From a virus (lineage: Duplodnaviria; Caudoviricetes): DNA of 64,000 nucleotides. Shown in pieces: positions 3,001 through 22,597 of the stretch (its first letter is position 1; each line of letters opens with the position of its first letter). The translations under genes and the position numbers were made by a program. The notes beneath the pieces were generated by a model. That model did no database searches. It was given only the letters and a program-made list of their open reading frames with translations, and had not been told where the DNA came from. The DNA lies in IMG/VR virus record IMGVR_UViG_2859564202_000001; one strand, written 5' to 3'.

Positions 3001-5851
3001 TTGTAGCACCCACTCGGGATCGCTCAGTGAACATCAAATCTTCTCGCACACGGTACACCAACGCCTCTGACATCACCTGCTCATAGCCTTTGAGCTTGGT
3101 ACGCTCTTCTAAACTCTTTGTCTCACCAGGCTTTTGTGGTACCACAGACGCGGTGTAGCCAGGGGCAAACATATAGTTCTCGCCACCATTAAATTTGGTG
3201 ACAATTTCACCATGCTCACCGCGAGTAAAAATCTGACCTATCTCACCCTGCACATGACGGGTGCGTTCACCGCGAACCTGCCCCTTACTATCTACTGCAC
3301 GACTATCCTTCGCACCAACACGTCGCTGTGCGGTCCACCGCACCACACCGTTATCGTCAACAGCAATATCGACCACATCAGCACCATTGCGGGAAATAGT
3401 CTCGGCAATGACAGTGCCAAATCGAGCCAACTGCGGGTCAAGATCAGGGTTATTAACCATTTTCTGCGCGGTCTCAGGATTAAATTTGAGCAACTGTTGA
3501 TTAATAACATCGTTATAGAATTCGTCACCGCGCAGTTCATCGCCAGTAATCGAAGTCGCTCGCAACGCGGCAATAATATCGTCATGGTTTGACCACAGGG
3601 ATTTAGCACTCGGCATGTGCTGAGCAACTGTCACCGGATTAAAACGCAAGCCGGTAACAGGATCAGGCTCCACCGTGCCGACATAATCATCAAGAACAAG
3701 GGCCGCGTGCTGACGCACACGATCCTCCACGGTCACAGCATTCATTGCTGAGGTCATCGCAGCAATCTGCTCATGATCACCATCGCGGATAGCAGCCATA
3801 TAATCATCGCGGTTAACCCCAGGGTTAAGCAGATCGGTTTCCTCACCTCGCAGCATCGCCCAATAGTCCTGCTTTATCGCCATGAGCTCATCCTCACCAG
3901 CAAAAGCCGGCATGAAGTCAGGATCATCGGCGTACTGTGCAGAAAGCGCAATCAGTTCTTCAACGCCGAGCTCTTCGGCCACACGCGCACGAGTAAGGGC
4001 GATATTGTTACCAAGCCACTCCGATGCTTTCGCTTCATTATCAAACCACTTTCCAGGACCAGCACTTCGATCACGTGCATCCTGAACGATCGAGAGCCCT
4101 TCACGCACCATGAATGCGGAACGATTCTTAGTGAAATATGCATCCTGTGCCTGCTCTAAAGCACGTGGGTGTCGAGCATTAGGCACACCAACAAGACCTT
4201 TGCCATCCTGTCGCTCAACCTCTCGACCGAGAGCAAATTTCACGAGATCGACAACTTCAGTTGGGCTTGGTTCATAATCAGTAGCCGGTGTCCACGTTCC
4301 ATCACCGTTCTCCATGCGCTCACGAGCTCGTAGACGTTCTTCCGCTGTTTGTTCGGCGGAATACTTAATCACAGTGCCAGAATCATAGACACGACCCACC
4401 CACTGTTCATTGGCGCGAGTATCAGTGAGACGAATATCAATACGGGTGCCCTCAATACGCACTTTAAGCTGTCCCGGCTCACGATCTGGCTCGATCCTAA
4501 AATCCACACCCTCATCCGACAGATACGTCAAAATAGCTTCCGAGCGCGCGATACCCTCATCAGACATGACCTTGTTGGGGTCAATTTTCTGACTCGCAAC
4601 ATCTGCGGTATCAATGAGTCCAGCACGCAGCCATGACGCTGCGGCACGGTATTCTTTAGCCGTCATAAACTGACCAATATTGGGCAGTCGCATCTGGTCA
4701 TTCTCGGTGATAGTGCGCCAGGCAATAGCTTCACCATTGACCCATTGAGTCAACGGTCGCACACCGCCTTTAGTGTCGTCTTCTCGATGAGTGCCCTCGT
4801 AAACATCATTATCTTGTAGGTGGATCGTTGCTAGATCAAGGTCCCTGATCATGCCAACACTCTCTTCGGACAGTGATAGCAGCTTGGTACCGTGCACACG
4901 GACTACTTCGCGGTCTGACCAGCGTGGATCATAAGGCGAAATAGGTAAACGACGACCACCCAGATCAGGTCCCTCAGGCAAACCATTAGGTCCAATTGCA
5001 GTGCCGACCATCTTGTCGAAACGGTGACGCAGCGCCTGGTACCCCTTTGAACCCTCACCCTCGCGAGCAATCGCACTAAACATGGGTGCTGCGTGAGGTG
5101 CCACCTCAGCAAAGGCAGCATTGACAGAGGCGAAGAATGCCTGAGTACTCCCCCGCTGCTCTACTGGTTCATAGGTTGCGAGATGCTCATCAACAAGCGC
5201 TCGGATCGCACGGCCATCAGAGGTGCTAAACTGCGACACACCAGCATCAACGTGCGTACCCCAGGTACCAAACATCTCGACACCTTCATAGAAGGCGTAC
5301 TCCCGGAAATAGCTCTCCATCGGATCAATGACAGGTAAACCCACACCCTCTGATTGGCGAACGGACTCTTGCGCGAGCGTTTGTTCAGCCTGGAATGTTG
5401 CTTGATCACGTGCCTGGAAAATAGCTGCCTGCTCTTGCTCATAAGCAGCTTGCTGTAGCGCTTGTGCCTGCTGCTGTTGGGCCACGAGATCCTGCTGCAC
5501 CAGCGCGTCATAAGATGACTTAATCGCCGTGTATTGCGGTGAATTAAGAATATTTCGCCTAGTTACCTTCGCGAACTGTGGTCGGTGTACACAGCCATGA
5601 GCTTCGGCATCAGCGGCGAAGGCATCATCGAAAGACGCAAACATGATGGCGCCATAGGTCGCTTCATCATTGAGGTCTAAGCCCTTATTGTTTGCTGCGC
5701 GCTGTTTCATCAAGGCTTCTGCTTGCCTATAGATACGCACAGCATCGTGATCACCCAGTGGAGCTTTGCCCCAGTGATCTTTTTGACCCCACTCTGAGCG
5801 CGCCATCTCAAGCGACCGTTCAAAAGCGTGTCGAAATAAAGTTTTGGACAT
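1..5851 (-). CDS. Giant single-polypeptide two-barrel (double-psi beta-barrel) DNA-dependent RNA polymerase, NCgl1702-like; 3' end runs off the window (>=1950 codons)
   Basis: ATG at 5851 follows a GGGAGG RBS, and the same frame is coding at position 1. Hand translation gives beta-like motifs DPHDRQNMTFSNIMQA, GWNFEDGIIVS, GDKLSDFHGNKGVI (2365-2327) and VVMSPFSAISRFN, then beta'-like VWRDPVIR and NPVSVKSFDGDFDGD (DFDGD at 1069-1055). All are in one frame. Not every codon was checked. Confidence 0.88.
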   Translation of the reverse strand, partial: MSKTLFRHAFERSLEMARSEWGQKDHWGKAPLGDHDAVRIYRQAEALMKQRAANNKGLDLNDEATYGAIMFASFDDAFAADAEAHGCVHRPQFAKVTRRNILNSPQYTAIKSSYDALVQQDLVAQQQQAQALQQAAYEQEQAAIFQARDQATFQAEQTLAQESVRQSEGVGLPVIDPMESYFREYAFYEGVEMFGTWGTHVDAGVSQFSTSDGRAIRALVDEHLATYEPVEQRGSTQAFFASVNAAFAEVAPHAAPMFSAIAREGEGSKGYQALRHRFDKMVGTAIGPNGLPEGPDLGGRRLPISPYDPRWSDREVVRVHGTKLLSLSEESVGMIRDLDLATIHLQDNDVYEGTHREDDTKGGVRPLTQWVNGEAIAWRTITENDQMRLPNIGQFMTAKEYRAAASWLRAGLIDTADVASQKIDPNKVMSDEGIARSEAILTYLSDEGVDFRIEPDREPGQLKVRIEGTRIDIRLTDTRANEQWVGRVYDSGTVIKYSAEQTAEERLRARERMENGDGTWTPATDYEPSPTEVVDLVKFALGREVERQDGKGLVGVPNARHPRALEQAQDAYFTKNRSAFMVREGLSIVQDARDRSAGPGKWFDNEAKASEWLGNNIALTRARVAEELGVEELIALSAQYADDPDFMPAFAGEDELMAIKQDYWAMLRGEETDLLNPGVNRDDYMAAIRDGDHEQIAAMTSAMNAVTVEDRVRQHAALVLDDYVGTVEPDPVTGLRFNPVTVAQHMPSAKSLWSNHDDIIAALRATSITGDELRGDEFYNDVINQQLLKFNPETAQKMVNNPDLDPQLARFGTVIAETISRNGADVVDIAVDDNGVVRWTAQRRVGAKDSRAVDSKGQVRGERTRHVQGEIGQIFTRGEHGEIVTKFNGGENYMFAPGYTASVVPQKPGETKSLEERTKLKGYEQVMSEALVYRVREDLMFTERSRVGATTSINSAYKRLYDNRFPVDFFERSAEEGLSDEWRAALLETASLRVRYDNSIRDGANVMEDIRAQQRGFDARNDNSRDALVLTGGRNISVLDVDAGKGFFDPMMTGMAANQGSVRYLLPSAKVGADGMITPGDPADRVPVAAHPESWAMGFDPHDRQNMTFSNIMQASAVTGGARTAMIQLGGWNFEDGIIVSADFANTHVIRDTEDEMRPLVAGDKLSDFHGNKGVIALVVDPAMSDADARAAGLESEVAFFRDNPDLEVVMSPFSAISRFNGGTARELMNNPQDVVFRNNDGSTRVQPGASGDLNFIVTHMAVDAKTNVYDEEAVREGQGRKASSQLAWVLQAQECHEIMEHFYGNNVSALANFQEYLRVTGLDVTPYGELREGFSESNEQRNIIEMPSIYDENGELNNRVNRAQVREAFVEQISRAGGVMEIPFQLQLRNGAQLEESPNNPDMYQLPLLSPHLRSDEDLADGSTSRHEYTTRYMAIFDTCYKLAEEQAKIDALRQEEAQHGTLPRAAEKRLSESQKFVDQAQKKVQASFDGIANDIVASRIETKNNVFKDGFMSARQSHSATAVWTGDPRLSVDEVAMNSSMARELGVLDNGYAMVWRDPVIRDGGVRYLRVVINDDLHGVAVNPVSVKSFDGDFDGDSVGLVGNLPKKAHEEALSRLTVEANMLDLGDGKRMEDGTMFYGLTLHDSLDVQVAQHHDPAMAENMKVIVSELNRYQREYEAGEISREELLEVNRAHMDDLNEHYAQAFANRDGLVTLRFDGMENHMASVAQCFETGAKGSPGKLKEYATYIGADPAQGFKDVGQPTPEALRSHYEGSQKATAIKVLFTGVAGKKEQEMVALCRNLGLTKEAMAASAPAQQSILQAKHDPIDALYRAETLMGPVGDLYQGRKMRRGENEQGRYEWEVVRDENHQPIQATKDEWVQQYMEMYADDKGMGVSVGVDQVEKIAEEFSDEQGYMRVLSHDELPTEIKPLALDQLAYGDKKNRFDL

Positions 5852-10377: not shown

Positions 10378-10417
10378 CAAACACCGCTGTTGATTACGTT
10401 CAACAGCGGTGTTTTTT
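10378..10417. terminator. Bidirectional intrinsic terminator
   Basis: aaaacaccgctgttga-ttacgt-tcaacagcggtgtttt hairpin between convergent genes. Confidence 0.8.
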
Positions 10418-10431
10418 ATCGCTCACGACAC

Positions 10432-11955
10432 TTAAGCATCTTCAATACGCCTAAAGGCTCGCGCGACTTCTTTATCAAAGTGACCCTGGGCGAGATCACG
10501 CCAATGCGGAAGCTCCACCAGCATGATGCGGAATGCTCGGGTGGTCTTATATTTACCCATAGCAGACAGCGGATCATCCTCTGTGCCAGATAGAGCTTCT
10601 TCACCCTCAGAGTAGACACGCGACTGCTCCACTCCTGCTTGCGCGCGCATAAGTGCAATATCTTCCTGCGACAACGCCTCAATCAACACAGTGCCATCGA
10701 CAGCATTAACCAAGCCGTTGTTAGCAGTCACCCGGAAATTCGGATCTTGAGCAAAAGCGTGCAGGCTCTCATCATAGGCTGCAGTGAGCTCATCTTCGAG
10801 TGAGTCCTGCAGGATGTGGCCGAATTGATCAGCCAGCATATCTCGTGACACCTTGCCTTCGGCATAACGCTTCAACCGCATGTCAGCGAGCTTATGTTCT
10901 GCATTCTCCTGATCGTGAATGAATTCATCATTGACCTCTGCTTCTTCAGACAGAGATTTCTTTTTCACCTTCGTACCAGTAGCCACGGGGAAGCCCTGAG
11001 CACTGTCTTCGAACTCATCATCAAAAACGTCATATTCAGACTCCATGAAATCACGAGCATTCATGACAGACTCATCCCCCTCGTCATAATCCGGCGTGTC
11101 ATCGTACTCATCTTTCGCGATCATCGTGTCCACGATGTCCATGATTTCTGCTGAATACACATCCATATCCAGGCGTGCAATATCAGAGTCATCGAGCCCA
11201 GTCGCCTTTTTATAAATATCGACGGCACGCTGAGTACGAATCGACTGCGCCATGCGCTTTTCCAGCATCGCCATAAAGTCCGGTGCATTTTGATTCACAT
11301 CGAATTCATTAGCGCTCGACAGTGTTGGAATAGTCTGCAACGAGTATTCGCGACCCGGTTGGATAATCTGGTTAGCAAACAACATGAACGACATCGGCCA
11401 AATCGTTTCATTGCGTGACCACACCGGATACTGACCCGCACGGAAGACGATGGCGTTCTGCGATGGCAGAGTATTTAGGTCATTATAAGACACCACCGGC
11501 TCTTTTTCAGTTGCAGACGTGTACGACACTTTACCCTCGGTGCGCATAACTAACTGTGCCAAGTCACGGGTTACGGTCTTTGAATTTCTGCGTACAACAT
11601 GTCGCTCACCTGACCAATCCACCAACGTCTTAATCATTGTTTCGTCTGTGGATTTCAAGAAGATAATGTTGGACGTGTTGTGGGTCGGGATCATATCGTC
11701 AGTGATGTAGAGATGGTCACGGTCGGCAATGCTGATGCATTGCACGGTATCGCGGCGGGAGAATTCTACAGAGACGATTTCATTGTCTGCTGCGGGCACG
11801 TCGAGACGTGCCCGATCTGCTGGATCGAAGTTGTCGAGGATCTCTGGCGCCCGCGCTGCGACACCAGGCAGAAACACCTTATCCCCTCGTGCCAGCATCG
11901 CTTTAAGCTCTGCCGTGGTGACGATTCTGCGCTCGCCAGCAAGTGTTTGCGTCAT
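10432..11955 (-). CDS. C-terminal precursor of the fractured VirD4/TraG-like coupling protein: IntC (aa 1-93) plus C-extein (414 aa)
   Basis: Intein blocks F/G (VQCISIADRDHLYITDDMIPTHN) then +1 Thr, followed by the T4CP-like TSNIIFLKSTDETMIKTLVDWSG; has its own RBS (GAAGGGG). Confidence 0.85.
   Translation of the reverse strand: MTQTLAGERRIVTTAELKAMLARGDKVFLPGVAARAPEILDNFDPADRARLDVPAADNEIVSVEFSRRDTVQCISIADRDHLYITDDMIPTHNTSNIIFLKSTDETMIKTLVDWSGERHVVRRNSKTVTRDLAQLVMRTEGKVSYTSATEKEPVVSYNDLNTLPSQNAIVFRAGQYPVWSRNETIWPMSFMLFANQIIQPGREYSLQTIPTLSSANEFDVNQNAPDFMAMLEKRMAQSIRTQRAVDIYKKATGLDDSDIARLDMDVYSAEIMDIVDTMIAKDEYDDTPDYDEGDESVMNARDFMESEYDVFDDEFEDSAQGFPVATGTKVKKKSLSEEAEVNDEFIHDQENAEHKLADMRLKRYAEGKVSRDMLADQFGHILQDSLEDELTAAYDESLHAFAQDPNFRVTANNGLVNAVDGTVLIEALSQEDIALMRAQAGVEQSRVYSEGEEALSGTEDDPLSAMGKYKTTRAFRIMLVELPHWRDLAQGHFDKEVARAFRRIEDA
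11677..11955 (-). mobile_element. C-terminal half of a split class 3 intein (93 aa)
   Basis: Block F Cys (VQC), block G Thr-His-Asn, +1 Thr. Confidence 0.85.
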
Positions 11956-12181
11956 ACTATAAACCCCTTCAATTAAATCAAGTAATTAATATACTAACTT
12001 AATTGAGTTTATTTTTACGGTTTAATTTACTCTAAGCGAAGACGCCCGGAATCACCATAAGCACCGTTTCCAGACGCAGAAACTAATTGAGCATATTGTA
12101 AAATATAGCTATGCTGACAATGATTCCGCCACGACCATCTACACAGCTGACAGATAGAAGCGTTGAGAAGTGTTTTAAGTG

Positions 12182-12901
12182 TTAGCGATTAAAGCGCCCA
12201 CAAATATAACCAACAGCAAATCCAGCAAGAGCACTTGTTGTTGCGCTCTCGACAGGACGGGTGGCTATATCCTCGGCAGGACTATCGGGGCTATCAGCAT
12301 TATCTTCGTCATAAAAATCAGTGAGTATGCCATCAATAAAGTCATCCATGATTGATGTGATGAAACTGGCGACTGCAATGAGCAGCAGCGATACGCACAT
12401 AATCCATGCAGGTGCATCACTAAACGTATTAGGTGTGCTTGGGACGATGAATCCAAATGTAACAGAGTAGACAAGTCCGGGAATTAGTAGCGCATAAATA
12501 GCAATTAATACTACATAAGCAATAACAACACTGAACCTAGAAGAAGTCTTGTTGACGTAAAGCGCCATGCGACGTGCGATATGCGCGAACTCATGGCGAC
12601 CGTGCACTACTCTATACATTGTTATCGCCATGTAGATCGCCAGGATTACTACGGATACAATCATTGCAGTCGAAGTTAGCCCTTCGACCAATGGAGTTGG
12701 CGCAATCATCAAAACCAGCAGCAGCGCTCTAATCTTGCGGACGAATAATGTGCGCAACATACTTCCTGCAATTTGCATATTGCTAGGATCGTCTGTGCCC
12801 CTGCCACGTCCGCCCTTGAGGTAGTGGTCTTCAATTCTATTGGTATTAGTCACTGGACTTTTTTCTCCTTGTGTAAATGTTCCTGAAAATAGTAGACTCA
12901 T
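12182..12901 (-). CDS. Hypothetical integral membrane protein (about 4 TM segments)
   Basis: Hydrophobic segments and an acidic tail; start uncertain. Confidence 0.65.
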   Translation of the reverse strand: MSLLFSGTFTQGEKSPVTNTNRIEDHYLKGGRGRGTDDPSNMQIAGSMLRTLFVRKIRALLLVLMIAPTPLVEGLTSTAMIVSVVILAIYMAITMYRVVHGRHEFAHIARRMALYVNKTSSRFSVVIAYVVLIAIYALLIPGLVYSVTFGFIVPSTPNTFSDAPAWIMCVSLLLIAVASFITSIMDDFIDGILTDFYDEDNADSPDSPAEDIATRPVESATTSALAGFAVGYICGRFNR

Positions 12902-13194
12902 TCGACTTTTAGGAATGGCAATTAACTCTGTCGATGAAACTGTGAAGTAAAAGCAGTTTCAGTAAAAGCACATCTATACGTGCTCTCACTATCACTGTGC
13001 GCGCATCATAAAAACGCGCAAGCACTATATAAATATCAACAGTTTCTGCACAATAATCAGAAAACAATAAATAAGCTGGTCACCACAGCAACTCACCCCA
13101 CCCGGTCCCCCTTTTTTCCTCACTGACACCGGAGCCGCCTCAAGCACCACGCTGCAATCACAGAAGCTAGTTGAGCATATTGTAGAATATAACT

Positions 13195-15015
13195 ATGCCA
13201 ACACTGCTTATTGACACCCATCCGCATCTTGCAGCGCAACTTCTTGACCCTGGTTTAGGTGAACTTCTTACAGCCGGTTCCAACAAAAAAGTGCAGTGGC
13301 AGTGCCCTAAGCACTCCAATCACATCTGGACGGCCTCGGTTAATAACCGCACCAATGCAAAGAACCCGCGCTGCCCCTATTGTGCCGGAACACGAGTGTT
13401 GGCAGGTTTTAATGATCTCGCCACCACTCACCCGCATCTTGCTGTACAGCTGGTTGACCAAGATATTGCCGTCACCATTTCCGCTGGTTCTGGCAAAAGA
13501 CAACTGTGGCAGTGTGTAGTAAACCCAAAACACCAGTGGTTGGCTACGCCAAATAATCGCACGAGTACTAAATCTGCGAGTTCTGGTTGCCCCTACTGTG
13601 CCAACCGAGCGGTATTAGTCGGTGACAATGACTTTGCAACAACCTACCCCGAACTTGCAGCGCAATTAGTAGATCAATCTGCAGCGACAACCTTTACAGC
13701 CGGCCACAACAAGCCTGTTGAGTGGATCTGTTGCAAGCATGAACCACCATTTATCTGGAAAACCTCACCAATTTTGCGTGTACGACAGAACACCCAGTGC
13801 CCTGTGTGCTCAGAGCGAACTGTGGCGCCGGCGCTTAATGATCTTGCAACCACTCACCCTAAACTTGCCGAGCAAATTGCAGATCCTCAACCAAGTGGTG
13901 TGAGCGCCGCGGCCATTATCCCCACCATTAGCAGGGGTTCCCATACGCAATTAACATGGCAATGTTCTAAAAATCATGACCACCAATGGGTCGCCACAGT
14001 AAAGGATCGTGTTCGCGGAACAGACTGCCCCACCTGCGCAAATACAGGAACTTCACGCAAAGAGGCTGAACTTATTGAGGTCATCCGTGCATTATTCCCA
14101 AACACTGATGTCCAGCAAGGTGCGCTCATTAATGGACGTACCGGTAATCAAGGTGCATCGCCGTCAACCGATGTACTCATACCGTCCAAAAATCTCGCTA
14201 TCGAGTTCAACGGCCTGTACTGGCACTCTGAGCTTTTCATCAAAGATAAGCATTATCATGCGAACAAATCAGCTCTCGCAGAACAAGCCGGTGTGCAGCT
14301 CATTCATGTGTGGGAGGACGACTGGAATCTTCGCCGCGACATTGTGATCCGCATGATCGCACACAAGCTTCATGCAACCCATAACCTCAGTGCTGTTTTG
14401 CCTACCGAAACTACTGACTCACGTGTGGCAACCACCGCTTTCGCCCGTACACTCACACTGTCGGTGGTCTCTGGTTCACGCGCTGCTGCATTCTTGAACA
14501 GCAACCATATTCAGGGTGCTGTCTCGGCCACTAAGCACTTTGCCCTGTGCGACAACAACGACGATATTCGAGCACTCCTGTCGGTGCGCTCACCAAAAAA
14601 CAATGCCCGCATGTATCGCAAAAAAGGCACATGGGAAATCCAGCGCTATGCGACACTCGGTAACGTCCCTGGCGGTTTTACTAGGCTGCTGAAGTTTGCC
14701 GAGCACACACTCAACGAACACAGCACAGTACTCAAGCAATGGATCTCATTTTCTGCTGCTGATGTCTCTGACGGCAGCCTGTATCGAACTGCCGGTTTTA
14801 CCGCCGAGCAACAGCTTGCACCGGATTATCGCTATGTCGGTGGCGCAACAGGTTGGCGCCGAACACCCAAAGAAAGCTTCCAGCGCAAACGCTTTAGAGA
14901 CGACCCAGCGTTGCTATGGAACGAATCTTGGACAGAGCACGAAGCAGCGCTCAACAACGAGCTCTACAGAATCTACGATGCCGGCAAAACCCGGTGGGTT
15001 AAAAATGTTGCTTGA
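13195..15015 (+). CDS. Free-standing putative homing endonuclease: four zinc-ribbon repeats, a Vsr-like nuclease and a Hef-like C-terminus
   Basis: Repeated W.C...H.W...R...CP.C units; DVLIPSKNLAIEFNGLYWH...LIHVWEDDW; located between the intein halves in opposite orientation. Confidence 0.8.
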   Translation: MPTLLIDTHPHLAAQLLDPGLGELLTAGSNKKVQWQCPKHSNHIWTASVNNRTNAKNPRCPYCAGTRVLAGFNDLATTHPHLAVQLVDQDIAVTISAGSGKRQLWQCVVNPKHQWLATPNNRTSTKSASSGCPYCANRAVLVGDNDFATTYPELAAQLVDQSAATTFTAGHNKPVEWICCKHEPPFIWKTSPILRVRQNTQCPVCSERTVAPALNDLATTHPKLAEQIADPQPSGVSAAAIIPTISRGSHTQLTWQCSKNHDHQWVATVKDRVRGTDCPTCANTGTSRKEAELIEVIRALFPNTDVQQGALINGRTGNQGASPSTDVLIPSKNLAIEFNGLYWHSELFIKDKHYHANKSALAEQAGVQLIHVWEDDWNLRRDIVIRMIAHKLHATHNLSAVLPTETTDSRVATTAFARTLTLSVVSGSRAAAFLNSNHIQGAVSATKHFALCDNNDDIRALLSVRSPKNNARMYRKKGTWEIQRYATLGNVPGGFTRLLKFAEHTLNEHSTVLKQWISFSAADVSDGSLYRTAGFTAEQQLAPDYRYVGGATGWRRTPKESFQRKRFRDDPALLWNESWTEHEAALNNELYRIYDAGKTRWVKNVA

Positions 15016-15178
15016 TTCTGCAGATTAGTTACTGAAACTGAATTAATGTAGGCTGCGTATGGCCTATTTTTGCTGGTTGTACAGTGTTTTTCCGCATTCG
15101 TAAGGGATGAGTGACCTGTCAGGTTGCCACTTCTAACCAAATAATAAGTAATCAATTTTAAAGGAAAAGAATTAAAGC

Positions 15179-15558
15179 ATGTCTAAAAATACAAATATTT
15201 CGCCATTGCTCTCCTAGCACCCATCCTCGGCTTAGTCGCTGCAGGTTGCTCCACTACAGCTGAAGAGCCAGCTGCAACTCAGGTAGAAGAAACAACAGTC
15301 GCCCGAGTTGAACACGATACTTACGACACTATTGCTAACCAGCTACAAGATGCCGGTGTCTATGACGATGTGGCCTTTGCCGAAGGCTACTACCAGGAAA
15401 TGGCTGAGGTTGTATGTGAAGCACGCGAAGAGGGTATCACCCACGAGGACACCCTGCATATGCTCAATGACATGATGGCAATGAAACGATCTGGCGAAGT
15501 ACTCAATACGCTCGCTGATGTTCTCTATGCAAATGAATGCCCTGAATATCGAATCTAA
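15179..15558 (+). pseudogene. Small lipoprotein gene frameshifted in an A5 run (15185-15189)
   Basis: AAAGGA RBS and ATG 15179. Adding one A gives MSKKYKYFAIALLAPILGLVAAG|C (lipobox), in frame with ORF 15370-15558. Confidence 0.7.
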
Positions 15559-15597
15559 ATTGTTGGTTCACTCTGCATAGACACAACACCACACAAC

Positions 15598-15641
15598 AAA
15601 AAACAACCCCCTAAGGATAATCCTCAGGGGGTTGTTCTGTT
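15598..15641. terminator. Bidirectional terminator downstream of the IntN-bearing exon
   Basis: aacaaccccct...agggggttgtt hairpin with A/T tails. Confidence 0.8.
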
Positions 15642-15649
15642 TCGACTCA

Positions 15650-15969
15650 TTATGCTGCGCTTGCTGCATCCTGCTCGGCAGGAACCACAATCACTTCCCA
15701 CAAATGCTCATCACAAGCCTCTGTGGTTGAGCCATCTTTACGTGTCACAGTAAATACATCTCGCTCACCCTGTGGGAACACACCGTCAATCTCGCTGACT
15801 GTCCCCTTTGGGGTAAGCACCTTCATACCTGCTTCTGCTTCGCCCATCGTGACCCATCCATCAGGTGTTGCGATCTTCGCCGTCAACGGCTGCGCATTAC
15901 CTTGGAGAATCTTGTCTGAGGCTTCGCCATACACCTGAGTCAACTGCTGCAGTGTCTGCAGAATCAATG
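15650..15969 (-). CDS. VirD4-like gene exon 3: end of N-extein (TLILQTLQQLTQVYGEASDKILQGN) plus IntN
   Basis: In frame with exon 2 after removing the group II intron (A+CA = Thr); T4CP motif Q...QL...YG. Confidence 0.85.
15653..15895 (-). mobile_element. N-terminal half of a split class 3 intein (81 aa)
   Basis: Block A AQPLTAKIATPDGW starts with Ala; block B TEACDEHLWEV contains Trp. Confidence 0.85.
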
Positions 15970-18033
15970 ATGTCAATAGGTAACGCTTTGATCTTATCTC
16001 CACGTTTTCCCCTGACCCACACCGTACGTGCGACTTTCACCGCATACGGCGCTCCATCACTAGAGTTCTTATCCCTCCGGTGACTTGTGACCATTACTCC
16101 TGCTCTCATTACAAGAGCTATCAACGCTTCGATCACTACTTTTCAACACTCGTTCGACTGCTTATTATTCTTCGTCAGTCTACGCAAAACCGCTATCCAA
16201 AAACTTCTTCCTGAAACGGACCACTTACTAATAACTCGCCAATTGATTCTGCTGTTCTCGCCGTATATGGGATCTCCAAAAGTGTTAGCTCTCGGACTAC
16301 AGTAAACGCTCGTTTTCGTCTGTCGTGCTCTTGTTGGATCGCGAAACGACTCTCTCCACCGAAATACTCAACTGGTCTAAAATGCTGCTCACCTTGGCAC
16401 TCAATCAACAACCAGGGCTCGGTATCCTTGAAAACCAAAAAATCATAACTCAGTGGTCCTCCACCAACCCCCACCAAACCATCGAAAGTCTTTTGAGATT
16501 CAAACTGAAAATCATTCTTTAAAAGAAAGTCCCTGACATGTGACTCTTGGATTGATCCGTGCAAACAACCACACGATTGGCTAATACCCTGCCTCAACAT
16601 AATCCCAGCAACAGCATTTTCGGAGCCGCACATACATCGGCACAACCACATTTGAGACCGCCCACCACCAGGGTAAAACCTGTCATCCGTACGAGACAGC
16701 ACAGTCCACTGGTTAAATACCTTGCCAGTCAAATCTTCAAAAACAGCAGTTTCTCGTCGCTGTTCTATGCGATAGCACCCGCACGATATTGACCGACCCC
16801 GCAACAAAGACTGTTCCAATACGTCCCTTGTCGCTCCACACTCGCACTCGCAAAACCACGCCTTAGATAAGCGACCCCACTGCAGCACGTCCTCACCACG
16901 TCGAACAACAGACCATCGACCAAATGTGGAACCAACTAAATCCCTATTCTTTGAAAGCGACTCGATTTTTAGACAACCACACGATTTCGAATCACCATTC
17001 TTCAGTGACCCCGCAGCAAGATCTTTCTCAACACCGCAAGTACATCTGCAATGCCACATGGTGGTTTTCCTTCCTGTGGAGGAAACCCTACTTTCCGCTC
17101 GATCTATGACAGTCCATCGCCCAAACACCTGACCTATGAGATCCTGTAAGTTCTTACCCTGCATCCTTTTACGAACAGTCTCATAACGACGACAACCGCA
17201 CGATGCGGTTTCATCAGCGTTCTTAAATCTAGAGGCCGGTGCATCATACTCCCTGCCACAATCACAAAGACATTGATACCGAACCTCAATCTTGCCACTT
17301 TTGTTTACACGATCGTTAGTGCGATAAAGAACTTTTATATGCCCGAAAGTTTTACCGGATAAATCATTAAACTTTCGTCGCCGATGTTGTTGCGGTGCTC
17401 GTATTGTCATCTCAAACTACTTTCAAATATATACCTTTATTTGTATATATTACCCCTTTTAATTAATTAAACAAGCTTTCAGCCTTGATAACAAGTGGTC
17501 CATTTCACTATAAAGTTATTAAATATTGGCAGCTATTTCACGCCGAATATCTTTCCCAGTTCCGTTTCACCTATCCGTTACATGCTGCCCTTAGGTGCTC
17601 ACTCTGACCCTGCTCGCCTCGGATGTGCCTGTAACACATCAGGGAGGTTCATAAATTCAAGTCTTACTTGTCCCCTACGAGCACTAACGCATTTCTACGC
17701 CGAACAATTCAAGAGCCGTACATTCGCAAGTTCGTCAGTTATCTCACTCGATAACATTCTCACCCTAGGCAGTTTCTGGACACCCGGCATATCAGCGGCA
17801 CATCAGATCACTCTGACGCTTTCGTAGCTACTGTGATCAAATCCCAGCACCTTTACGACCGACCTTCTGCCGACTCTAACGGGCTTTATACAGTTCTATT
17901 TTGTTCAAACCGCATACCGTAGCTTGGTGTGCACATTTCAGGGCGTTACTCCGTCATTCTGTGTATCAATGAAACAGTTTCTTGCAACTTTAAGCTGCAA
18001 GAGCGTAGTTTTTCGCTACGCAACTGGTCGCAC
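15970..18033 (-). mobile_element. Group II intron (2064 nt) with a non-RT ORF
   Basis: 5' GTGCG at 18033. Domain V GAGCGCCGTATGCGGTGAAAGTCGCACGTACGGTGTG (about 16054-16018, CGC triad), a domain VI stem, and 3' AT at 15970. Removal restores GQEQQF-T-LILQTLQQL. Confidence 0.92.
16193..17410 (-). CDS. Group II intron-encoded putative homing endonuclease (four CxC/SCGC repeats plus a Vsr/DUF559-like nuclease)
   Basis: Four DLxGxxFGxWxV...CxCxCG...SCGC repeats; YDFLV...LIECQGEQH...HDRRK; no RT (YADD) motif. Confidence 0.82.
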   Translation of the reverse strand: MTIRAPQQHRRRKFNDLSGKTFGHIKVLYRTNDRVNKSGKIEVRYQCLCDCGREYDAPASRFKNADETASCGCRRYETVRKRMQGKNLQDLIGQVFGRWTVIDRAESRVSSTGRKTTMWHCRCTCGVEKDLAAGSLKNGDSKSCGCLKIESLSKNRDLVGSTFGRWSVVRRGEDVLQWGRLSKAWFCECECGATRDVLEQSLLRGRSISCGCYRIEQRRETAVFEDLTGKVFNQWTVLSRTDDRFYPGGGRSQMWLCRCMCGSENAVAGIMLRQGISQSCGCLHGSIQESHVRDFLLKNDFQFESQKTFDGLVGVGGGPLSYDFLVFKDTEPWLLIECQGEQHFRPVEYFGGESRFAIQQEHDRRKRAFTVVRELTLLEIPYTARTAESIGELLVSGPFQEEVFG

Positions 18034-19690
18034 TAAATTGTTGTTCTTGTCCCAGACCGATCGAGAGCATGGTTTCAAATCCCGCAATACCATGACCCTC
18101 ACTCTGAAGGTTTCCCAACTCGTCCAACATGAAACGAGTCTTATAATCCGGCTTCTGATTCTCACGCGTCATATACGAGGAATCGAAGTTCAGATCCACA
18201 AGCTGTTTGATGAGAATCAAAATCAACTTCGCATATTTCATAAGATGCGGAGGCGTTACGAAGAACACTGCCTTAGGCTTCTCCGAATACCGCACATTCA
18301 GAGCCGACACCGCATCAACCATCGCATCAACCTGCTTGATCATGTCATGACCCGGCATATTGATCTGTTCCTGCGTGAGTTGGTCAAGATTCAGTTTCTT
18401 CGTCTTAAACTGCACATGACCTGGAACAAAGTCACCAGCATCGTTTTTCACCAGCTCGATCAGCAGACCATTCTTAATGATCTTCTCATCGGTCACCGGA
18501 TCAGTAATAAACGCACGGCCTTTAAGGTTCGTTTGGTAGCCCTTGGTGAACTTGAAGTACAGAGTCTTGATCAACGTGCCAGAAGTACCATTGAGAATCC
18601 GCAAACGCAGGTACGCAGTATTACTCGGGAACGAGTCTTTAATATAGAACCGCGCCCAACCCTCAACCGACAGCGTGTCATCATGAACAAAATTCTTACC
18701 CAACGGCTTGGTGAACTTGGCGTCACTATACGCATCCCATTTCACCTGTGATCCAACCAGGTTGTAGCGCTTCACATAGGGGGCCGCAAAACGAACACCC
18801 ATGCGCCGTGGAAACGACAATCCGGCCAAGTCAACGTTCTGACTTAGTGTGCCTGAGGTTAACGTTGAAATTGTGGGGTCTGTAAAGAAGGACATCGCTG
18901 TAATCGCGATACCGTAGACCGACGCCATCATTTTTTCAGCGCCACCCATTGCTTTCAGGGCCTTATCTGCGTTGCCCACCAGAGTACGAACACTGGACTT
19001 TGGCAGACCGTCTGTGGCACTAAAGAACAAGGTGAGCATGTCTTTTTCTTTCTCACCCTCCCACAGAAACATTTCGTTCTCTTCGGCCTCTGTCACAGCA
19101 TCCTGGAACATCATGGCTGCATTTTCATCAGTCTCTAAGTTACCGAATTCACCGGCACGTGCACGTTCATTGAGTCGCTCAACGGGATTCTTCAGCTTCT
19201 TTGCCGAAAGCTGCACAAAGAGCTGGTAGCAGTTGTAGAGCGTGACCTTACCCCACATCTGATCAATACGTGTATCAAGCACCTTGGCATCCCAATTCTC
19301 AGCTGCAGCCTGCTTGCGCATCTCGCGCTCCTCTTCCAAATAGAAGTCGATAAGACCATAGGCTGCACGCTTGAAGGCATTGTTGGCCGCATTCGGCCAT
19401 ACCGGATCATCGGCACCGTCCACCGGAAAGAACACCTCTGCGATATTTTCCACATAGGTTGCGCACTTCATCCCGTTACCTTCGCGAGCTGCTTCGGCTG
19501 CTAATCCCAACGGGTTATAAATATCAGTTTTCAGGTTGTTAATCAGGTTAAACTGAACAACCTGAAAACCGCGCTTAGACATCCGAACATAATTTTTCTT
19601 CAGCAACTCGCCTTTAGGGTCGTTGATACACATATTGTTCGGTCGAGTTTCCCTCGTCCACATGTCGATCATTGGCTCAATGTAGGTCTG
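18034..19690 (-). CDS. VirD4-like gene exon 2 (P-loop continuation through Walker B)
   Basis: QTYIEPMIDMW, INDPKGEL, YNPL and RFMLDELGNL are T4CP motifs. Confidence 0.88.
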
Positions 19691-21355
19691 ACATGATCTT
19701 CAGGACTGTTCGCAACACAATCCTCGGGGGCGAACCCCTGCTCACGCTTTCACGTGAGATGAGATTATATGTTCATCTTAAGTGCTTAATAACTTAATAA
19801 GTTTGTCGAGAATCCCAATCAATTGAATCTAAACAACCACCATCAAACCACGCTCGCGCATCACTTAATCGAGGATGTCTTCCCTCACCATCAATAGAAC
19901 TGCTGCCATCCCAAAAAACCAAATAATTCAACTTATTGATTCTTGCGGCCTCGCGCTTAGCCACATCAGTTTCGGTCCAGACACGAATGAAACTCCTATA
20001 TCTAGATTGACCGCCAAACTCCGATTCAAGTTCATCTGCTCTACCCATCCAAAATCTAACAAGACTCTGGTCACGCTCGTCAGATGAATCAAACCAGTGG
20101 TCATTATGACTACGATCCCCATTCAATTCGATGAACATATCTCGGGATTTGATGTAGTAGTCAACATGAAAAGGATAACGATCATCCACAACCACATTTC
20201 GAAGTACATCGTCCATGCCAAAACGATTTTGAAGCAAAACTTCTAAGGCGTCCTCTGGTTTTGAATCATTTAATGTACCGTTCAATCTGCGAGCTTCGAA
20301 AATCTTCTCCCGAATTTCAGGTACCAAAACACTATCCGGCGCACCATAAAGCGATGTCATAGTTTCTTGTCTAGACTTTCGAACTTTTTCCGCAACTTCT
20401 GGGATTTGAGTCGGATAATCAACACCATGGCGATCATTCATCGTAGCCCTAAGGGTATTTTGCATTCTCAATAATATGTCTGGATCTTGATTCGGGTGCT
20501 CTACTCCATAACGTTCAACCAACGTGGCTGTTCTTTTCTCCCGCCCACGCTCAACAGCAACCTCATTGACAAACCGATCAAAGGTCGATTTATCAAAAAC
20601 GTTATCGACTCCGTAGCGCTCCCTGACTGTAGCAATCTGCTTCAACTTCCAACACTCATCTCGCAAAACTCTATAGCGGGACTCACCCAGAATCGACCTG
20701 AATACCTTTGCGTAATCCCCGAATCCACAATCTAACGCCATAATTTTCTTCGATCTTCCAGCTTGGTATAGATCATCAAATTCACAACTCATCTCCCTAT
20801 AGGCAGCTTCTACTTCATCATGGTTAAATCGTTTCTCAATAAAACTAATCTGATAATTTTGCACATCAGCTTTACTAAACCGAGTGCCCTTAACCAAATT
20901 CTGTTTCAATACCGATTGAATAGATAATCCGGTATGAGTTTTGATGTAGTCACCAGGGAAACCACGGAGGTACAAATCTGTTGCCTGTTGAAGAATTGTC
21001 ATAAAAATATTCTACTAAATTAATGACATTACTATCGACAAACCTATTAAGTTATCAAACAACATAAGAGTTAGATTTTTCTTCTGCCATGAGCTTGCAG
21101 TTCTACTCCCCCACAAGGGGATAATCGTTGAACCTACCGCATGGTGTCACGCACTGTAGCGGTGTGGCTGCTAAAGACCCATTGTTACGTGATCTCTTAG
21201 GATTTAACCTTAAGACCATCTCTTCTTTTCTTTCCGCTTTCGCAACCATATCGGTATGAGTTTTCACTCTGCCGTTTCGGTAAGAAGAGCTTTAGGGATT
21301 CAAAGCAATTAACCTAAAAGTATGCGCTTGTCACCAAACGCACAGGGCCTTAGTT
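19691..21355 (-). mobile_element. Group I intron (about 1665 nt) in the Walker A codons, ORF in the P8 region; exact 3' splice site ambiguous
   Basis: P1 AGGGU/GCCCU with a U.G wobble at 21356. P3 UUAGGUU/AAUCUAA. P7 A(C)GAUUA (21128-21122) pairs with UAAUCU (19767-19762). P9-like hairpins precede exon 2. Removal restores TRAGKG-QTYIEP. Confidence 0.88.
19794..21002 (-). CDS. Group I intron-encoded putative homing endonuclease (EDxHD/Vsr-like)
   Basis: (E/D)R(Y/H)GV(D/E) repeats; VDYYIKSRDMFIELNGDRSH nuclease motif; TAGAAT-N6-ATG suggests a leaderless promoter. Confidence 0.8.
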   Translation of the reverse strand: MTILQQATDLYLRGFPGDYIKTHTGLSIQSVLKQNLVKGTRFSKADVQNYQISFIEKRFNHDEVEAAYREMSCEFDDLYQAGRSKKIMALDCGFGDYAKVFRSILGESRYRVLRDECWKLKQIATVRERYGVDNVFDKSTFDRFVNEVAVERGREKRTATLVERYGVEHPNQDPDILLRMQNTLRATMNDRHGVDYPTQIPEVAEKVRKSRQETMTSLYGAPDSVLVPEIREKIFEARRLNGTLNDSKPEDALEVLLQNRFGMDDVLRNVVVDDRYPFHVDYYIKSRDMFIELNGDRSHNDHWFDSSDERDQSLVRFWMGRADELESEFGGQSRYRSFIRVWTETDVAKREAARINKLNYLVFWDGSSSIDGEGRHPRLSDARAWFDGGCLDSIDWDSRQTY

Positions 21356-22597
21356 ACCCTTACCTGCACGAGTCATAGCCAACACCAGCGTATTCACCGG
21401 AGCTTCATCAACCACATAAGCACCAGCTGGTCGCTGCGGCTCATAATCGGGAAACTCCCAATCCTCATTGATGTGCTGCGCGACAGTATCTTGCTTACCA
21501 GTCTTGTCACGATTACTACCACCAGGATTCCACTCAATCTTTGCTGGATTAAAGAACCGTCGCAGCTCGGGAAGATTCGGGACATCTGATTTGTCAAAAA
21601 TCGCATGGCTAAATTCGTTGTCAATCATCGGCAAGCTCTTTGTGATCGGTTGTCCTGCACCGTCATAGAGCACTTCACCCTTTTCAGAGACAATTTCACC
21701 AGTGTCATTGTCGATAATTGTCTCCTGTGCAAACTGCGTTACATCCACCTTTTTCAAGCCCTTATTCGACAGCATCACATGGGAAATCATGCTTGAGGGC
21801 TGGACTGGTGAGTGTGCACCGACATCGGGGAACAGACTCAAATCGCGCACAATCTCCTGCGGAATCGCCAAACGTGCGTCATTGGTGTGCTGGTTAATAT
21901 CGGTGGTGTCCACAGCGACGTTTTGTGTTTCTAGCTGACGCATCATTGCTGCGCGTGACATCGCATACACACCCGCTGCAACCGCAATCACAAACGTCAC
22001 CCGAATAATGCCCACATGACCAAATAACAGCCAGCTACCCACCGAATTATCAATAGGTTCTGGTGCATCAAAGCCATGTTCTGCGAACACACTAGCTACA
22101 TAATCGGCGTACCACACTGGCTCTTTAGGCACGCTACGCGTACAGTCGCCAAAATTATTGCCAAATTCATCAAGCGGTTGGTAGCACGTGGTGTGAGCAC
22201 TACTGGTGCCGATTTGCTGTTCGACAGCAACATAATAGGGTCTCACACCAAGCTCATCAAAAAGCTCTTTGTCATTAGGTGAGCCAGTATTCATCATGGT
22301 CTGGATCAGCAGCCCGATACCGCCCCAGGCCAGCCACATCACAACCAGGACAAACACGCCCAGAATCGCAGCACCCACCTCAACCCACATCGGTGAGCGC
22401 ATTTCTCCGATTTCACCGCGTGCCAGTTGCTGCTCATTGTGTACGTCACGGTTGCGGGCTTTATCCGTCACCCGCTGTTTTCGCAGCTGATCAAAGGTCC
22501 GATCAGTCTGCTTTAGATCTTTGGTGCCACCACCTTTGAAGGCTTTGCCACCAGACACATTGTCATAATCGCGTTTACTTGAACCGAATAATGCCAT
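21356..22597 (-). CDS. VirD4-like gene exon 1 (two TM segments up to Walker A, NTLVLAMTRAGKG)
   Basis: ATG 22597 with GAAAGG RBS; two TM helices; ORF stops immediately after GKG. Confidence 0.88.

What the first reader, a model, noticed from the sequence alone, without database searches (positions are those of the whole stretch)
10432..22597. One conjugative coupling-ATPase gene needs group I splicing, group II splicing and protein trans-splicing
Seen in the sequence: four apparently separate minus-strand ORFs join in frame into one VirD4/TraG-like protein of about 1405 aa. Exon 1 (22597-21356) ends TRAGKG. A group I intron follows. Exon 2 (19690-18034) runs QTYIEP...FMLDELGNL...QQF. A group II intron follows. 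Exon 3 starts at 15969 with TLILQTLQQL...KILQGN. A split intein follows, and the C-extein starts at 11676 with TSNIIFLKSTD. Each insertion hits a conserved T4CP motif, and each is associated with its own Vsr-like endonuclease gene. Established: self-splicing elements favour conserved ATPase motifs. Inference: all three element classes in one conjugation gene is exceptional, and I know of no description of it. DNA transfer could depend on three splicing events. Ordinary annotation would call these pseudogene fragments.
Basis: partly seen in the sequence, partly recalled or inferred. Interest (0 to 1): 0.97.

Follow-up and report, generated by a model that had tools for sequence, protein, structure and literature searches.

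The report
Coupling-protein gene needing three splicings
One DNA-transfer ATPase gene of an integrated mobile element is cut into four pieces by a group I intron, a group II intron and a split intein. Each carries its own homing-endonuclease gene, so a whole protein needs two RNA splicings and one protein trans-splicing.

Summary
Four minus-strand pieces join into a 1405-aa VirD4/TraG-type coupling protein. It aligns without gaps across all three junctions to 12 uninterrupted actinobacterial homologs.

- **Interruption 1 (21356-19692)** is an IA2-type group I intron with a homing-endonuclease ORF in P8. Rfam misses it and its phage relatives, but homology and covariation support it.
- **Interruption 2 (18033-15970)** is a group II intron. 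Its ORF is a zinc-ribbon plus Vsr/EDxHD-fold endonuclease, not a reverse transcriptase, and the genome holds no RT.
- **Interruption 3** is a class-3-type (Ala1, W-C-T) split intein in a "fractured gene" layout.

The case is not unique. 96 of 120 listed homolog clusters carry the same split C-half, the same group I intron sits at the same site in six other loci, and related loci hold up to three group II introns.

Splicing itself was not shown, because the RNA data were uninformative. The parts are known kinds; I found no description of the triple combination or of this large split class-3 intein family.

The parts
21357..22597 (-). Exon 1 of the T4CP gene. It starts at ATG 22597 (the open frame reaches back to TTG 22645) and ends ...TRAGK + GG of the last Gly codon.
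   Evidence: ORF. 42% identity to residues 11-424 of P0001. Gap-free junction alignment. One-base shifted 5' splice site inferred and PMC4227781.
19692..21356 (-). Group I intron, IA2-like, 1665 nt. P1 is GGGU/GCCC, with the U-G pair closing the loop. It has P2-P9, P7.1/P7.2 and P9.1/P9.2, the ORF lies in L8, and it ends in G19692 (omega-G).
   Evidence: About 72% identity over 240 nt to intervening sequences of Herelleviridae phages. The same intron sits at the same site in L022-L027. RNAalifold and pair counts show covariation. Rfam finds nothing, but it also misses the relatives.
19794..21002 (-). Intron-encoded homing endonuclease, 402 aa (DUF7487). It has a helical N-terminal part and a C-terminal Vsr/EDxHD-like nuclease.
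   Evidence: Pfam DUF7487. PHROG homing endonuclease families. 51-53% identical orthologs in the same intron in L023, L024, L025 and L027. Fold search top hits are 1cw0_A Z 6.8 and 3r3p_B Z 5.8.
18034..19691 (-). Exon 2. It runs from U (third base of the Gly codon) + QTYIEP..., through Walker B-like FMLDELGNL, to ...GQEQQF + A (first base of the Thr codon).
   Evidence: Pfam T4SS-DNA_transf. 73% identity to P0001 residues 423-976. Junctions.
15970..18033 (-). Group II intron, 2064 nt. It has a 5' GUGCG, domain V with a CGC triad, domain VI with a bulged A, and a 3' ...AU. EBS2 UUGUUC and EBS1 UGAAUU match GAACAA-C-AAUUUA at the end of exon 2.
   Evidence: Rfam RF02004 at 133.1 bits (17982-17773) and RF00029 at 62 bits (16054-15970). 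Sequence. EBS/IBS search.
16193..17410 (-). ORF inside the group II intron, 405 aa. It has four zinc-ribbon repeats of about 65 aa plus a C-terminal Vsr/EDxHD-fold nuclease, and no reverse transcriptase or maturase.
   Evidence: PHROG 374/559/9084 endonuclease families. No RT family in Pfam. AlphaFold model pLDDT 90.7. VIA-align gives 1cw0_A Z 10.3 and 3r3p_B Z 10.0 over residues 283-403.
15896..15969 (-). Exon 3, the end of the N-extein. It runs from CA (completing the Thr codon) + LILQTLQQLTQVYGEASDKILQGN.
   Evidence: Weak TraG-D_C match to profile positions 30-59.
15653..15895 (-). N-terminal half of the split intein, 81 aa (AQPL...HLWEVIV...). It starts with Ala and carries block B His and Trp. 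The stop codon is at 15652-15650.
   Evidence: Homologous to the first ~75 residues of contiguous 356-363-aa inteins at the same site in P0034, P0055, P0057, P0058 and P0113, and to the N-halves of L013 and L015.
15600..15638 (-). Terminator-like hairpin (18-bp stem followed by a T run) directly after the N-half stop codon.
   Evidence: sequence.
13195..15015 (+). Free-standing homing-endonuclease gene between the intein halves, on the opposite strand (606 aa). It has four DUF4379 treble-clef zinc fingers, a nuclease region and a C-terminal domain.
   Evidence: Pfam DUF4379 at 1.1e-40. PHROG 559/3339. Weak REase MTES_1575 match. 40% identical over its full length to the gene at the same place in L013.
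12182..12901 (-). ORF of 239 aa between the halves, hydrophobic with no family. It is probably cargo and not part of the splicing apparatus.
   Evidence: No Pfam, PHROG or NCBIfam match. No similarity to the ORF at the analogous place in L013.
11677..11955 (-). C-terminal half of the split intein, 93 aa. It has its own ATG with GAAGGGG 8-9 nt upstream, a block F Cys (VQC), and ends THN.
   Evidence: 96 of 120 listed homolog clusters have the same layout. Cys73, His81, Thr91-His92-Asn93 and Thr+1 are invariant in 39 sequences.
10432..11676 (-). C-extein (TSNIIFLKST... to the acidic C-terminal tail), stop codon included.
   Evidence: Weak TraG-D_C match to profile positions 56-125, contiguous with exon 3. 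39% identity to P0001 residues 992-1406. Junction.
10379..10414 (-). Terminator-like hairpin after the C-half gene.

Best explanation
The stretch is a single VirD4/TraG-type coupling-protein (T4CP) gene. It belongs to an integrated mobile element that also carries a MobL relaxase, a ClpB-like ATPase and a lysozyme. Three unrelated self-splicing elements have colonised the gene at invariant motifs, each with a homing-endonuclease gene.

**Predicted expression path (inferred, not shown)**
1. One transcript runs from upstream of 22597 to the terminator at about 15600.
2. The IA2 group I intron (21356-19692) removes itself. It rejoins the Walker A codons GG|U CAG, using a 5' splice site one base upstream of its U-G pair.
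3. The group II intron (18033-15970) removes itself without any maturase and rejoins UUU A|CA UUG.
4. Translation gives a precursor of about 1072 aa that ends in the 81-aa N-intein half.
5. A second transcript gives the 507-aa C-precursor.
6. The two intein halves associate and splice by the class 3 route. Cys73 of the C-half attacks the Asn-Ala bond, the acyl group passes to Thr+1, and Asn93 cyclises. The result is the 1405-aa protein with ...ILQGN-TSNIIF....

The endonucleases serve to spread the elements at the DNA level. They are not needed for splicing.
For: **Gene and context**
- Junction continuity with 12 homologs, and GKGQ invariant in 120.
- A single T4CP in the genome, in four pieces.
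- Context genes.

**Group I intron**
- Phage homologs at 1e-20.
- The same intron at the same site in six other loci, with the endonuclease ORF 51-53% conserved.
- Covariation: P7 47/48 cells paired with compensatory GAUUAU/AUAAUC, GACUAU/AUAGUC and GAUCAU/AUGAUC; P7.1 40/40; P7.2 32/32; P9 46/47.
- The one-base offset recurs in 6 of 7 T4CP alleles and in a viable phage's tail-tube gene, compared with an intronless phage. It matches RT-PCR-proven splicing after G in BcISt1 (PMC4227781).

**Group II intron**
- Rfam 133 and 62 bits.
- GUGCG...AU ends and EBS/IBS matches.
- Endonuclease-bearing group II introns in viable phages are a precedent (PMC12350094).

**Intein**
- Contiguous inteins sit at the identical site.
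- 96 of 120 clusters carry the split C-half.
- The W-C-T, HN and T+1 residues are invariant.
- The same gene order, with an orthologous endonuclease gene, occurs in L013.
- The C-half has its own RBS and terminators.
Against: - No spliced RNA or ligated protein was observed. Two raw-read RNA runs gave no reads at all on the stretch, and contigs of two RNA runs carry only the unspliced sequence. Contigs show presence only.
- The genome holds no reverse transcriptase or maturase (genome 100% complete), so group II splicing would have to be protein-independent or helped by a host factor.
- Rfam does not recognise intron 1.
- Its 5' splice site breaks the usual rule that a U precedes it.
- The related allele L022 does not fit the shifted-site rule.
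- If my recall that this is the cryptic CGP3 region of Corynebacterium glutamicum is right, the element may no longer transfer, and selection on the gene may be relaxed.
Confidence: 0.7

Rival explanations
1. The anatomy is right, but the gene is functionally dead in this genome. At least one element no longer splices in vivo, so no full-length coupling protein is made and the pieces are a recently inactivated relic of a cryptic element. The most likely failure is the maturase-less group II intron.
For: - No RT or maturase anywhere in the genome.
- Only unspliced sequence in RNA-run contigs (weak).
- Unspliced exon 2 reads into the intron and ends ...NYALAA, a tmRNA-tag-like tail that would favour degradation (lead).
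- From my recall, the region is a cryptic, silenced prophage-like element.
Against: - 1405 codons in four pieces have no stop or frameshift, and all motif residues are kept.
- The ribozyme cores are complete.
- The intein catalytic residues are intact and identical to those conserved in 39 relatives.
- All three endonuclease ORFs are intact.
- Endonuclease-bearing group II introns without RT sit in essential genes of viable phages (PMC12350094).
Confidence: 0.25
2. Intervening sequence 1 splices at the canonical sites, after U21356 and after G19692. That leaves an extra U, so the message is frameshifted after GKG and encodes a truncated protein.
For: The U-G pair and the terminal G are both present, and taken at face value they predict GGU+UCAG.
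Against: - The same one-base pattern is kept in six diverged T4CP alleles with intact exons.
- It is also kept in the essential tail-tube gene of a viable Enterococcus phage, whose exon 2 differs from an intronless relative only at synonymous positions of the in-frame reading.
- Splicing after G was shown by RT-PCR for related IA2 ribozymes (PMC4227781).
Confidence: 0.04
3. The pieces act as separate polypeptides that assemble non-covalently, without RNA or protein splicing.
For: Fragmented enzymes held together by remnants of mobile elements exist (abstract of PMC3045599, listed).
Against: - Break 1 cuts through the Walker A loop, and exon 2 and exon 3 have no start codon or RBS of their own at the junctions.
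- The intein halves keep every catalytic residue, which non-covalent assembly would not need.
Confidence: 0.02

Closest known systems
"Fractured genes": split inteins with a free-standing homing-endonuclease gene between the halves (Dassa et al. 2009, PMC2677866)
   Same: There are two ORFs, each carrying half an intein plus half of an enzyme. A free-standing Vsr-like endonuclease gene lies between them, and the C-half has its own expression signals.
   Different: - The host gene is a conjugative coupling ATPase in an actinobacterial integrated element, not a phage replication or repair gene.
- The intein is class-3-type.
- The halves are 81 and 93 aa, against 88-105 and 33-54.
- The endonuclease gene is on the opposite strand, and extra cargo lies between the halves.
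[quoted passage not shown] 2020, PMC7891396)
   Same: It is naturally split, has no N-terminal nucleophile, and uses an internal block F cysteine as the first nucleophile.
   Different: - AceL NrdHF deviates from the W-C-T triplet; this one keeps W, C and T.
- That paper found no split form among 1701 class 3 inteins and called them very rare.
- Here 96 listed 90%-identity clusters share this split form.
Group B IStrons such as BcISt1: IA2 group I ribozymes that splice after a G (Tourasse et al. 2014, PMC4227781)
   Same: It has IA2 architecture with P7.1/P7.2 and P9.0-9.2. The U-G pair directly closes the P1 loop, the U is intron base 1, and the 5' exon ends in G.
   Different: - There is no IS element.
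- Mobility is by a Vsr/EDxHD-like homing endonuclease encoded in P8.
- The host is a high-G+C Gram-positive element.
[quoted passage not shown]
   Same: The group II ribozyme carries a zinc-ribbon-repeat plus Vsr-fold endonuclease ORF and no RT. [quoted passage not shown]
   Different: - It lies in a bacterial chromosome-borne transfer element, not a phage.
- A split intein is added in the same gene.
- No RT exists anywhere in the host genome.
Ll.LtrB group II intron in the relaxase gene of pRS01 (abstract of PMC7293003)
   Same: A conjugation gene can only be expressed after self-splicing.
   Different: Ll.LtrB has a standard RT/maturase and is the only interruption. Here there are three layers, and the interrupted gene is the coupling protein.
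Trichodesmium erythraeum ribonucleotide reductase gene with four inteins and three group II introns (from my recall; not checked here)
   Same: Several introns and inteins pile up in one conserved gene.
   Different: It has no group I intron and no split intein in that gene, and it is a housekeeping gene rather than a transfer gene.

Membership tests
Group I intron (subgroup IA2) | [quoted passage not shown] | tested here: met
   AGGGU pairs with GCCCU, and GGGU/GCCC is kept in 7 of 8 aligned sequences. The splice site is shifted one base 5' of the U-G pair. This is atypical, but it is documented for group B IStrons.
Group I intron (subgroup IA2) | Conserved core helices P3-P9 with P7.1/P7.2, supported by covariation | tested here: met
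   RNAalifold on 8 sequences recovers P2, P4-P6, P7, P7.1, P7.2, P8 and P9. Paired cells are 47/48, 40/40, 32/32, 35/40 and 46/47, with compensatory changes. P3 was read by eye only (UUAG/CUAA, CCAG/CUGG, ACUU/AAGU; sequences).
Group I intron (subgroup IA2) | Terminal guanosine (omega-G) as the last intron base | tested here: met
   With the shifted 5' site the intron ends in G19692. G followed by one pyrimidine before the Gln codon occurs in 6 of 7 alleles.
Group I intron (subgroup IA2) | Match to the curated Rfam model | tested here: inconclusive
   There is no hit even at E up to 10. The same search also misses the phage relatives, including one annotated as a group I intron.
Group I intron (subgroup IA2) | Self-splicing activity | not testable with these tools
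   Read laying gave no joints. The raw-read runs had no reads on the stretch.
Group II intron | 5' GUGYG, domain V, domain VI with a bulged A, and a 3' AY | tested here: met
   GUGCG at 18033. RF00029 at 62 bits covers D5/D6 and ends ...CCUAUUGACAU at 15970. RF02004 at 133 bits lies in D1.
Group II intron | EBS1/EBS2 in domain I complementary to the 5' exon end | tested here: met
UGAAUU (nt 375-380) pairs with AAUUUA, and UUGUUC (nt 327-332) pairs with GAACAA.
Group II intron | Intron-encoded reverse transcriptase/maturase | tested here: not met
   The ORF has no RT domain and the whole genome has no PF00078 match. This feature is typical but not obligatory: ORF-less and endonuclease-bearing group II introns are known (PMC12350094).
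Class 3 intein | No Cys/Ser/Thr at intein position 1; Trp at block B:12, Cys at block F:4, Thr at block G:5; terminal His-Asn; nucleophile at +1 | tested here: met
   Ala1. ...EHLW in the N-half, with H74 and W76 invariant in 8 sequences. VQC...PTHN|T in the C-half, with C73, T91, H92, N93 and T94 invariant in 39 sequences.
Naturally split intein | Halves encoded by separate genes, each fused to an extein, and kept in evolution | tested here: met
   A stop codon and terminator follow the N-half, and an ATG with an RBS precedes the C-half. The same layout occurs in 96 of 120 listed clusters and in L013 and L015.
Naturally split intein | Protein trans-splicing activity | not testable with these tools
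EDxHD / Vsr-like homing endonucleases | Vsr-type nuclease fold in the catalytic domain | tested here: met
   Group II ORF: 1cw0_A Z 10.3 (rmsd 2.8, 105 aa) and 3r3p_B Z 10.0 (97 of 98 aa) are the two best of 48,161 chains.
EDxHD / Vsr-like homing endonucleases | The same fold in the group I ORF and in the free-standing ORF | tested here: inconclusive
   Group I ORF: the same two top hits, but Z 6.8 and 5.8 from a model with pLDDT 78. Free-standing ORF: only DUF4379 repeats, shared PHROG families and a weak MTES_1575 match. There is no BLASTP similarity to the group II ORF nuclease.
Type IV coupling protein (VirD4/TraG) | T4SS-DNA_transf / TraG-D_C domains with Walker A and B | tested here: met
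   PF02534 on exon 2. PF12696 is split between exon 3 and the C-extein. Homologs carry PF10412 + PF02534 + PF12696 and are named T4SS conjugative DNA transfer proteins. Walker A TRAGKGQT is rebuilt across intron 1.

The most novel reading that the evidence does not exclude
Actinobacterial transfer elements of this type carry a large, so far undescribed family of naturally split class 3 inteins in their coupling protein. Their T4CP gene is a general landing pad for group I introns, for maturase-less endonuclease-bearing group II introns, and for inteins. In this genome all three layers are functional, so production of the coupling ATPase, and hence DNA transfer, is gated by two ribozymes and one protein trans-splicing reaction. 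Those steps could act as checkpoints that respond to conditions.
Probability: 0.35. Interest if true: 0.9.

Novelty: new variant of a known kind. Interest (0 to 1): 0.8.

Why it matters
- **A testable model.** If the organism is the one I recall, it is a culturable and genetically tractable bacterium. One gene there would require a group I ribozyme, a protein-free group II ribozyme and a split class 3 intein, so each step can be tested by ordinary RT-PCR, mutagenesis and mass spectrometry.
- **Split class 3 inteins.** They have been reported as very rare. A family of about a hundred diverged natural pairs with Thr+1 and no N-terminal cysteine would give protein chemists a ready set of orthogonal ligation tools with few cysteines.
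- **Group I introns.** The intron adds non-IStron members to the ribozymes that cut one base away from the U-G pair, which bears on how group I introns choose their 5' splice site.
- **Annotation.** Pipelines call these pieces hypothetical proteins or pseudogenes. That hides the transfer machinery of a widespread class of actinobacterial elements.

Tried and rejected
- **Rfam for intron 1.** Gathering threshold, and E-value thresholds down to a 1.7-kb stretch, found nothing. A control on phage relatives was equally negative, so this is not evidence against a group I intron.
- **RNA evidence.** One search for runs and one lay of reads were made. Runs X24 and X21 (raw reads) had no reads on the stretch, so they are no test. 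Contigs of X18 and X16 showed only the unspliced form and no joints.
- **Canonical splice sites for intron 1.** I first took the one-base misfit for a frameshift mutation. I rejected that after finding it in six other alleles, in a phage, and in the literature.
- **A suppressor tRNA reading four bases.** There is no tRNA gene in the window.
- **Near-identical DNA in phage and plasmid collections.** Only the D5/D6 of the group II intron matched, to RT-bearing introns of Firmicutes plasmids.
- **Intron 1 DNA in 301 genomes of the same family.** It was found only in G001.
- **Sequence search of the three endonucleases against PDB.** No hits.
- **Foldseek on the whole 405-aa model.** No clear hit. 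VIA-align was needed.
- **The 239-aa ORF between the halves.** It has no relative at the analogous place in L013.
- **Literature search for a prior description.** Nine full-text searches covered CGP3 with intron or intein, Corynebacterium glutamicum with group II intron, and inteins in coupling proteins. None described this locus. The library lacks most subscription journals.

Full report
**1. Observation**

I joined them in a script: exon 1 to 21356/7, exon 2 19690/1-18034, exon 3 15969-15896 and C-extein 11676-10432. The join has no internal stop. From ATG 22597 it is 4215 nt, which is 1405 codons.

A search with exon 2 for longer proteins found hundreds of uninterrupted relatives of 1330-1430 aa in Gordonia, Rhodococcus, Nocardiopsis, Arthrobacter and Microbacteriaceae. 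They carry PF10412, PF02534 and PF12696 and are named type IV secretory system conjugative DNA transfer proteins.

Twelve of them align with the joined protein without a gap at TRAGKG|QTYIEP, GQEQQF|TLILQTLQQL and KILQGN|TSNIIFLKST. All 120 listed read GKGQ[TG][YV]IEP. The nearest held genome (G001, 3.3 Mb, one contig, 100% of the window's words) contains this protein only once, in these pieces.

**2. Context**

The window also encodes:
- a MobL relaxase;
- a ClpB-like double AAA ATPase directly upstream of the T4CP gene;
- a lysozyme;
- a C5 methylase with NgoFVII-type and Z1/DEAD restriction genes;
- a 1950-aa protein with a faint RNA polymerase beta match.

The same core order recurs in metagenomic and genomic loci L013, L022-L027: ClpB-like ATPase, a protein of about 700-890 aa, the T4CP, then a protein of about 1900 aa.

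I treat that as an inference.

**3. Intervening sequence 1 is a group I intron with a shifted 5' splice site**

*Rfam.* Rfam finds nothing. Rfam 15 is equally blind to its relatives, including one annotated as a group I catalytic intron.

*Homology.* Blastn links bases 42-292 of the insert, at about 72% identity and E 1e-20, to non-coding inserts in essential genes of Herelleviridae and other phages. The genes include tail tube, portal, tail lysin and exonuclease.

*Other T4CP alleles.* The protein search with exon 1 showed that 39 of 120 listed N-terminal fragments stop just after GKG. Six fetched loci have the same insert at the same codon. Four of them carry a DUF7487 ORF 51-53% identical to the window's 402-aa ORF, and two are ORF-less at 412-422 nt.

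*Structure.* RNAalifold on eight ORF-trimmed sequences recovers P1, P2, P4-P6, P7, P7.1, P7.2, P8 and P9. The pair counts show many compensatory changes. P7 appears as GAUUAU/AUAAUC, GACUAU/AUAGUC and GAUCAU/AUGAUC. In the window the ORF lies in the loop of P8.

*The splice sites.* P1 (GGGU/GCCC) puts the usual cut after U21356, and the family-conserved terminal G is G19692. Together they would leave an extra U and a frameshift. I found the same one-base pattern in six of seven T4CP alleles.

It also occurs in Enterococcus phage phiEF17H. Its tail-tube exon 2 differs from the intronless phage EFGrNG only at synonymous positions of the in-frame reading.

Tourasse et al. 2014 describe exactly this for group B IStrons. 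The U of a U-G pair that closes the P1 loop belongs to the intron, and the 5' exon ends in G, as proven by RT-PCR for BcISt1. Hence the intron is 21356-19692 and the message reads AAG GG|U CAG.

**4. Intervening sequence 2 is a group II intron without a reverse transcriptase**

- Rfam gives RF02004 (133 bits, 17982-17773) and RF00029 (62 bits, 16054-15970).
- The insert starts GUGCG at 18033 and ends AU at 15970.
- The Thr codon is rebuilt as A|CA.
- UUGUUC and UGAAUU in domain I match GAACAA-C-AAUUUA at the exon end.
- Its D5/D6 is 87-90% identical to introns of Firmicutes plasmids that carry LtrA-type RTs.

Here the 405-aa ORF has four zinc-ribbon repeats and a C-terminal domain. In a confident model (pLDDT 90.7), that domain's two best structural matches among 48,161 chains are E. 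coli Vsr (Z 10.3) and the I-Bth0305I catalytic domain (Z 10.0). No RVT_1 match exists anywhere in the genome.

[quoted passage not shown] It is a group II ribozyme with CapR/DUF4379-like repeats plus an EDxHD/Vsr-like nuclease.

Related T4CP loci hold further group II introns of the same Rfam class. L026 has three and L022 has one.

**5. Interruption 3 is a split class-3-type intein in a fractured-gene layout**

*Contiguous relatives.* Five uninterrupted-gene homologs carry a contiguous 356-363-aa intein with a LAGLIDADG domain exactly between QGN and TSN. Its ends are homologous to the window's 81-aa N-half and 93-aa C-half.

*Signals.* The N-half is followed by a stop codon and an 18-bp terminator hairpin. 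The C-half has its own ATG with GAAGGGG upstream.

*Spread.* Searching with the C-half ORF gave 96 of 120 listed clusters with the same design. Each has a start codon, about 85-130 residues of intein C-half, then TSNI(V/I)FLKST.

*Conserved residues.*
- In 39 C-halves, Cys73, His81, Thr91-His92-Asn93 and Thr+1 are invariant.
- In 8 N-parts, the block B His and Trp are invariant, and position 1 is Ala, Cys or Pro.

That is the class 3 signature.

*Same layout elsewhere.* L013 has the same layout. Between its halves, on the opposite strand, lies an endonuclease gene 40% identical over its full length to the window's 606-aa DUF4379 protein.

*Literature.* This is the arrangement of Dassa et al. 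2009. Hoffmann et al. 2020 found no split form among 1701 class 3 inteins and described one metagenomic case as the first. I found no paper on inteins in coupling proteins.

**6. What is not shown**

None of the three splicing reactions was observed. The complex predictor was not available. The Vsr fold is firm for one endonuclease, suggestive for the second, and only family-based for the third.

**7. Verdict**

The claim of uniqueness is not. The T4CP family of these elements is broken at at least six sites by introns and at one site by an intein. Group I plus group II introns in one gene are already published.

What appears new is threefold:
- the triple combination in one gene of a bacterial chromosome;
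- the size of the split class-3 intein family;
- the extension of the shifted-splice-site IA2 ribozymes beyond IStrons.

Noticed in passing
window 17990-18033 (minus strand): If the group II intron is not spliced, exon 2 reads on into the intron and ends ...AKNYALAA. That resembles the end of a tmRNA (ssrA) degradation tag. An earlier first-reader note flagged it. I only confirmed that the letters are there.
   Followed up: partly
loci L022, L023, L024, L026 (ClpB-like ATPase gene upstream of the T4CP): The neighbouring double-AAA ATPase gene carries LAGLIDADG/Hint domains in several related elements (products of 991-1365 aa, against 595 aa in the window). A second gene of the same module is therefore also an intein target.
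   Followed up: no
proteins P0241-P0360; loci L026, L027: The T4CP family shows recurrent breaks at other sites: near PVNTMV (40 of 120 fragments), after GKGQT.IE (10), after TDIYN (11), and near AEKMMAS..AITAM (10). In L026 three of them are group II introns. In L027 a group I-like P1/P2 follows MLSIG.
   Followed up: partly
locus L015: A C-half ORF and a 99-aa N-half ORF of the same split intein lie 5.3 kb apart. Five opposite-strand genes lie between them, and no long N-extein sits nearby. The setting includes a ribonucleotide reductase small subunit and a UvrD helicase.
   Followed up: no
window 31075-33843 and 33935-34537 (minus strand): Two adjacent ORFs both match the MobL relaxase profile, at positions 2-359 and 63-168. 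This may be a duplicated or broken relaxase.
   Followed up: no
window 2-5851 (minus strand): A product of at least 1950 aa downstream of the T4CP has only a faint RNA polymerase Rpb2 domain 6 match. A protein of about 1876 aa sits at the same place in L013. Earlier notes read it as a single-chain two-barrel RNA polymerase.
   Followed up: no
window 42687-44198 (minus strand): A 503-aa ORF has a C-terminal GIY-YIG nuclease domain. This is possibly another free-standing homing endonuclease in the element.
   Followed up: no
loci L004, L005, L008, L009, L011: Several phage relatives of intron 1 are followed by IS605/TnpB-type transposase genes. They are IStron-like and sit inside portal and exonuclease genes of Staphylococcus and Clostridium phages.
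   Followed up: partly
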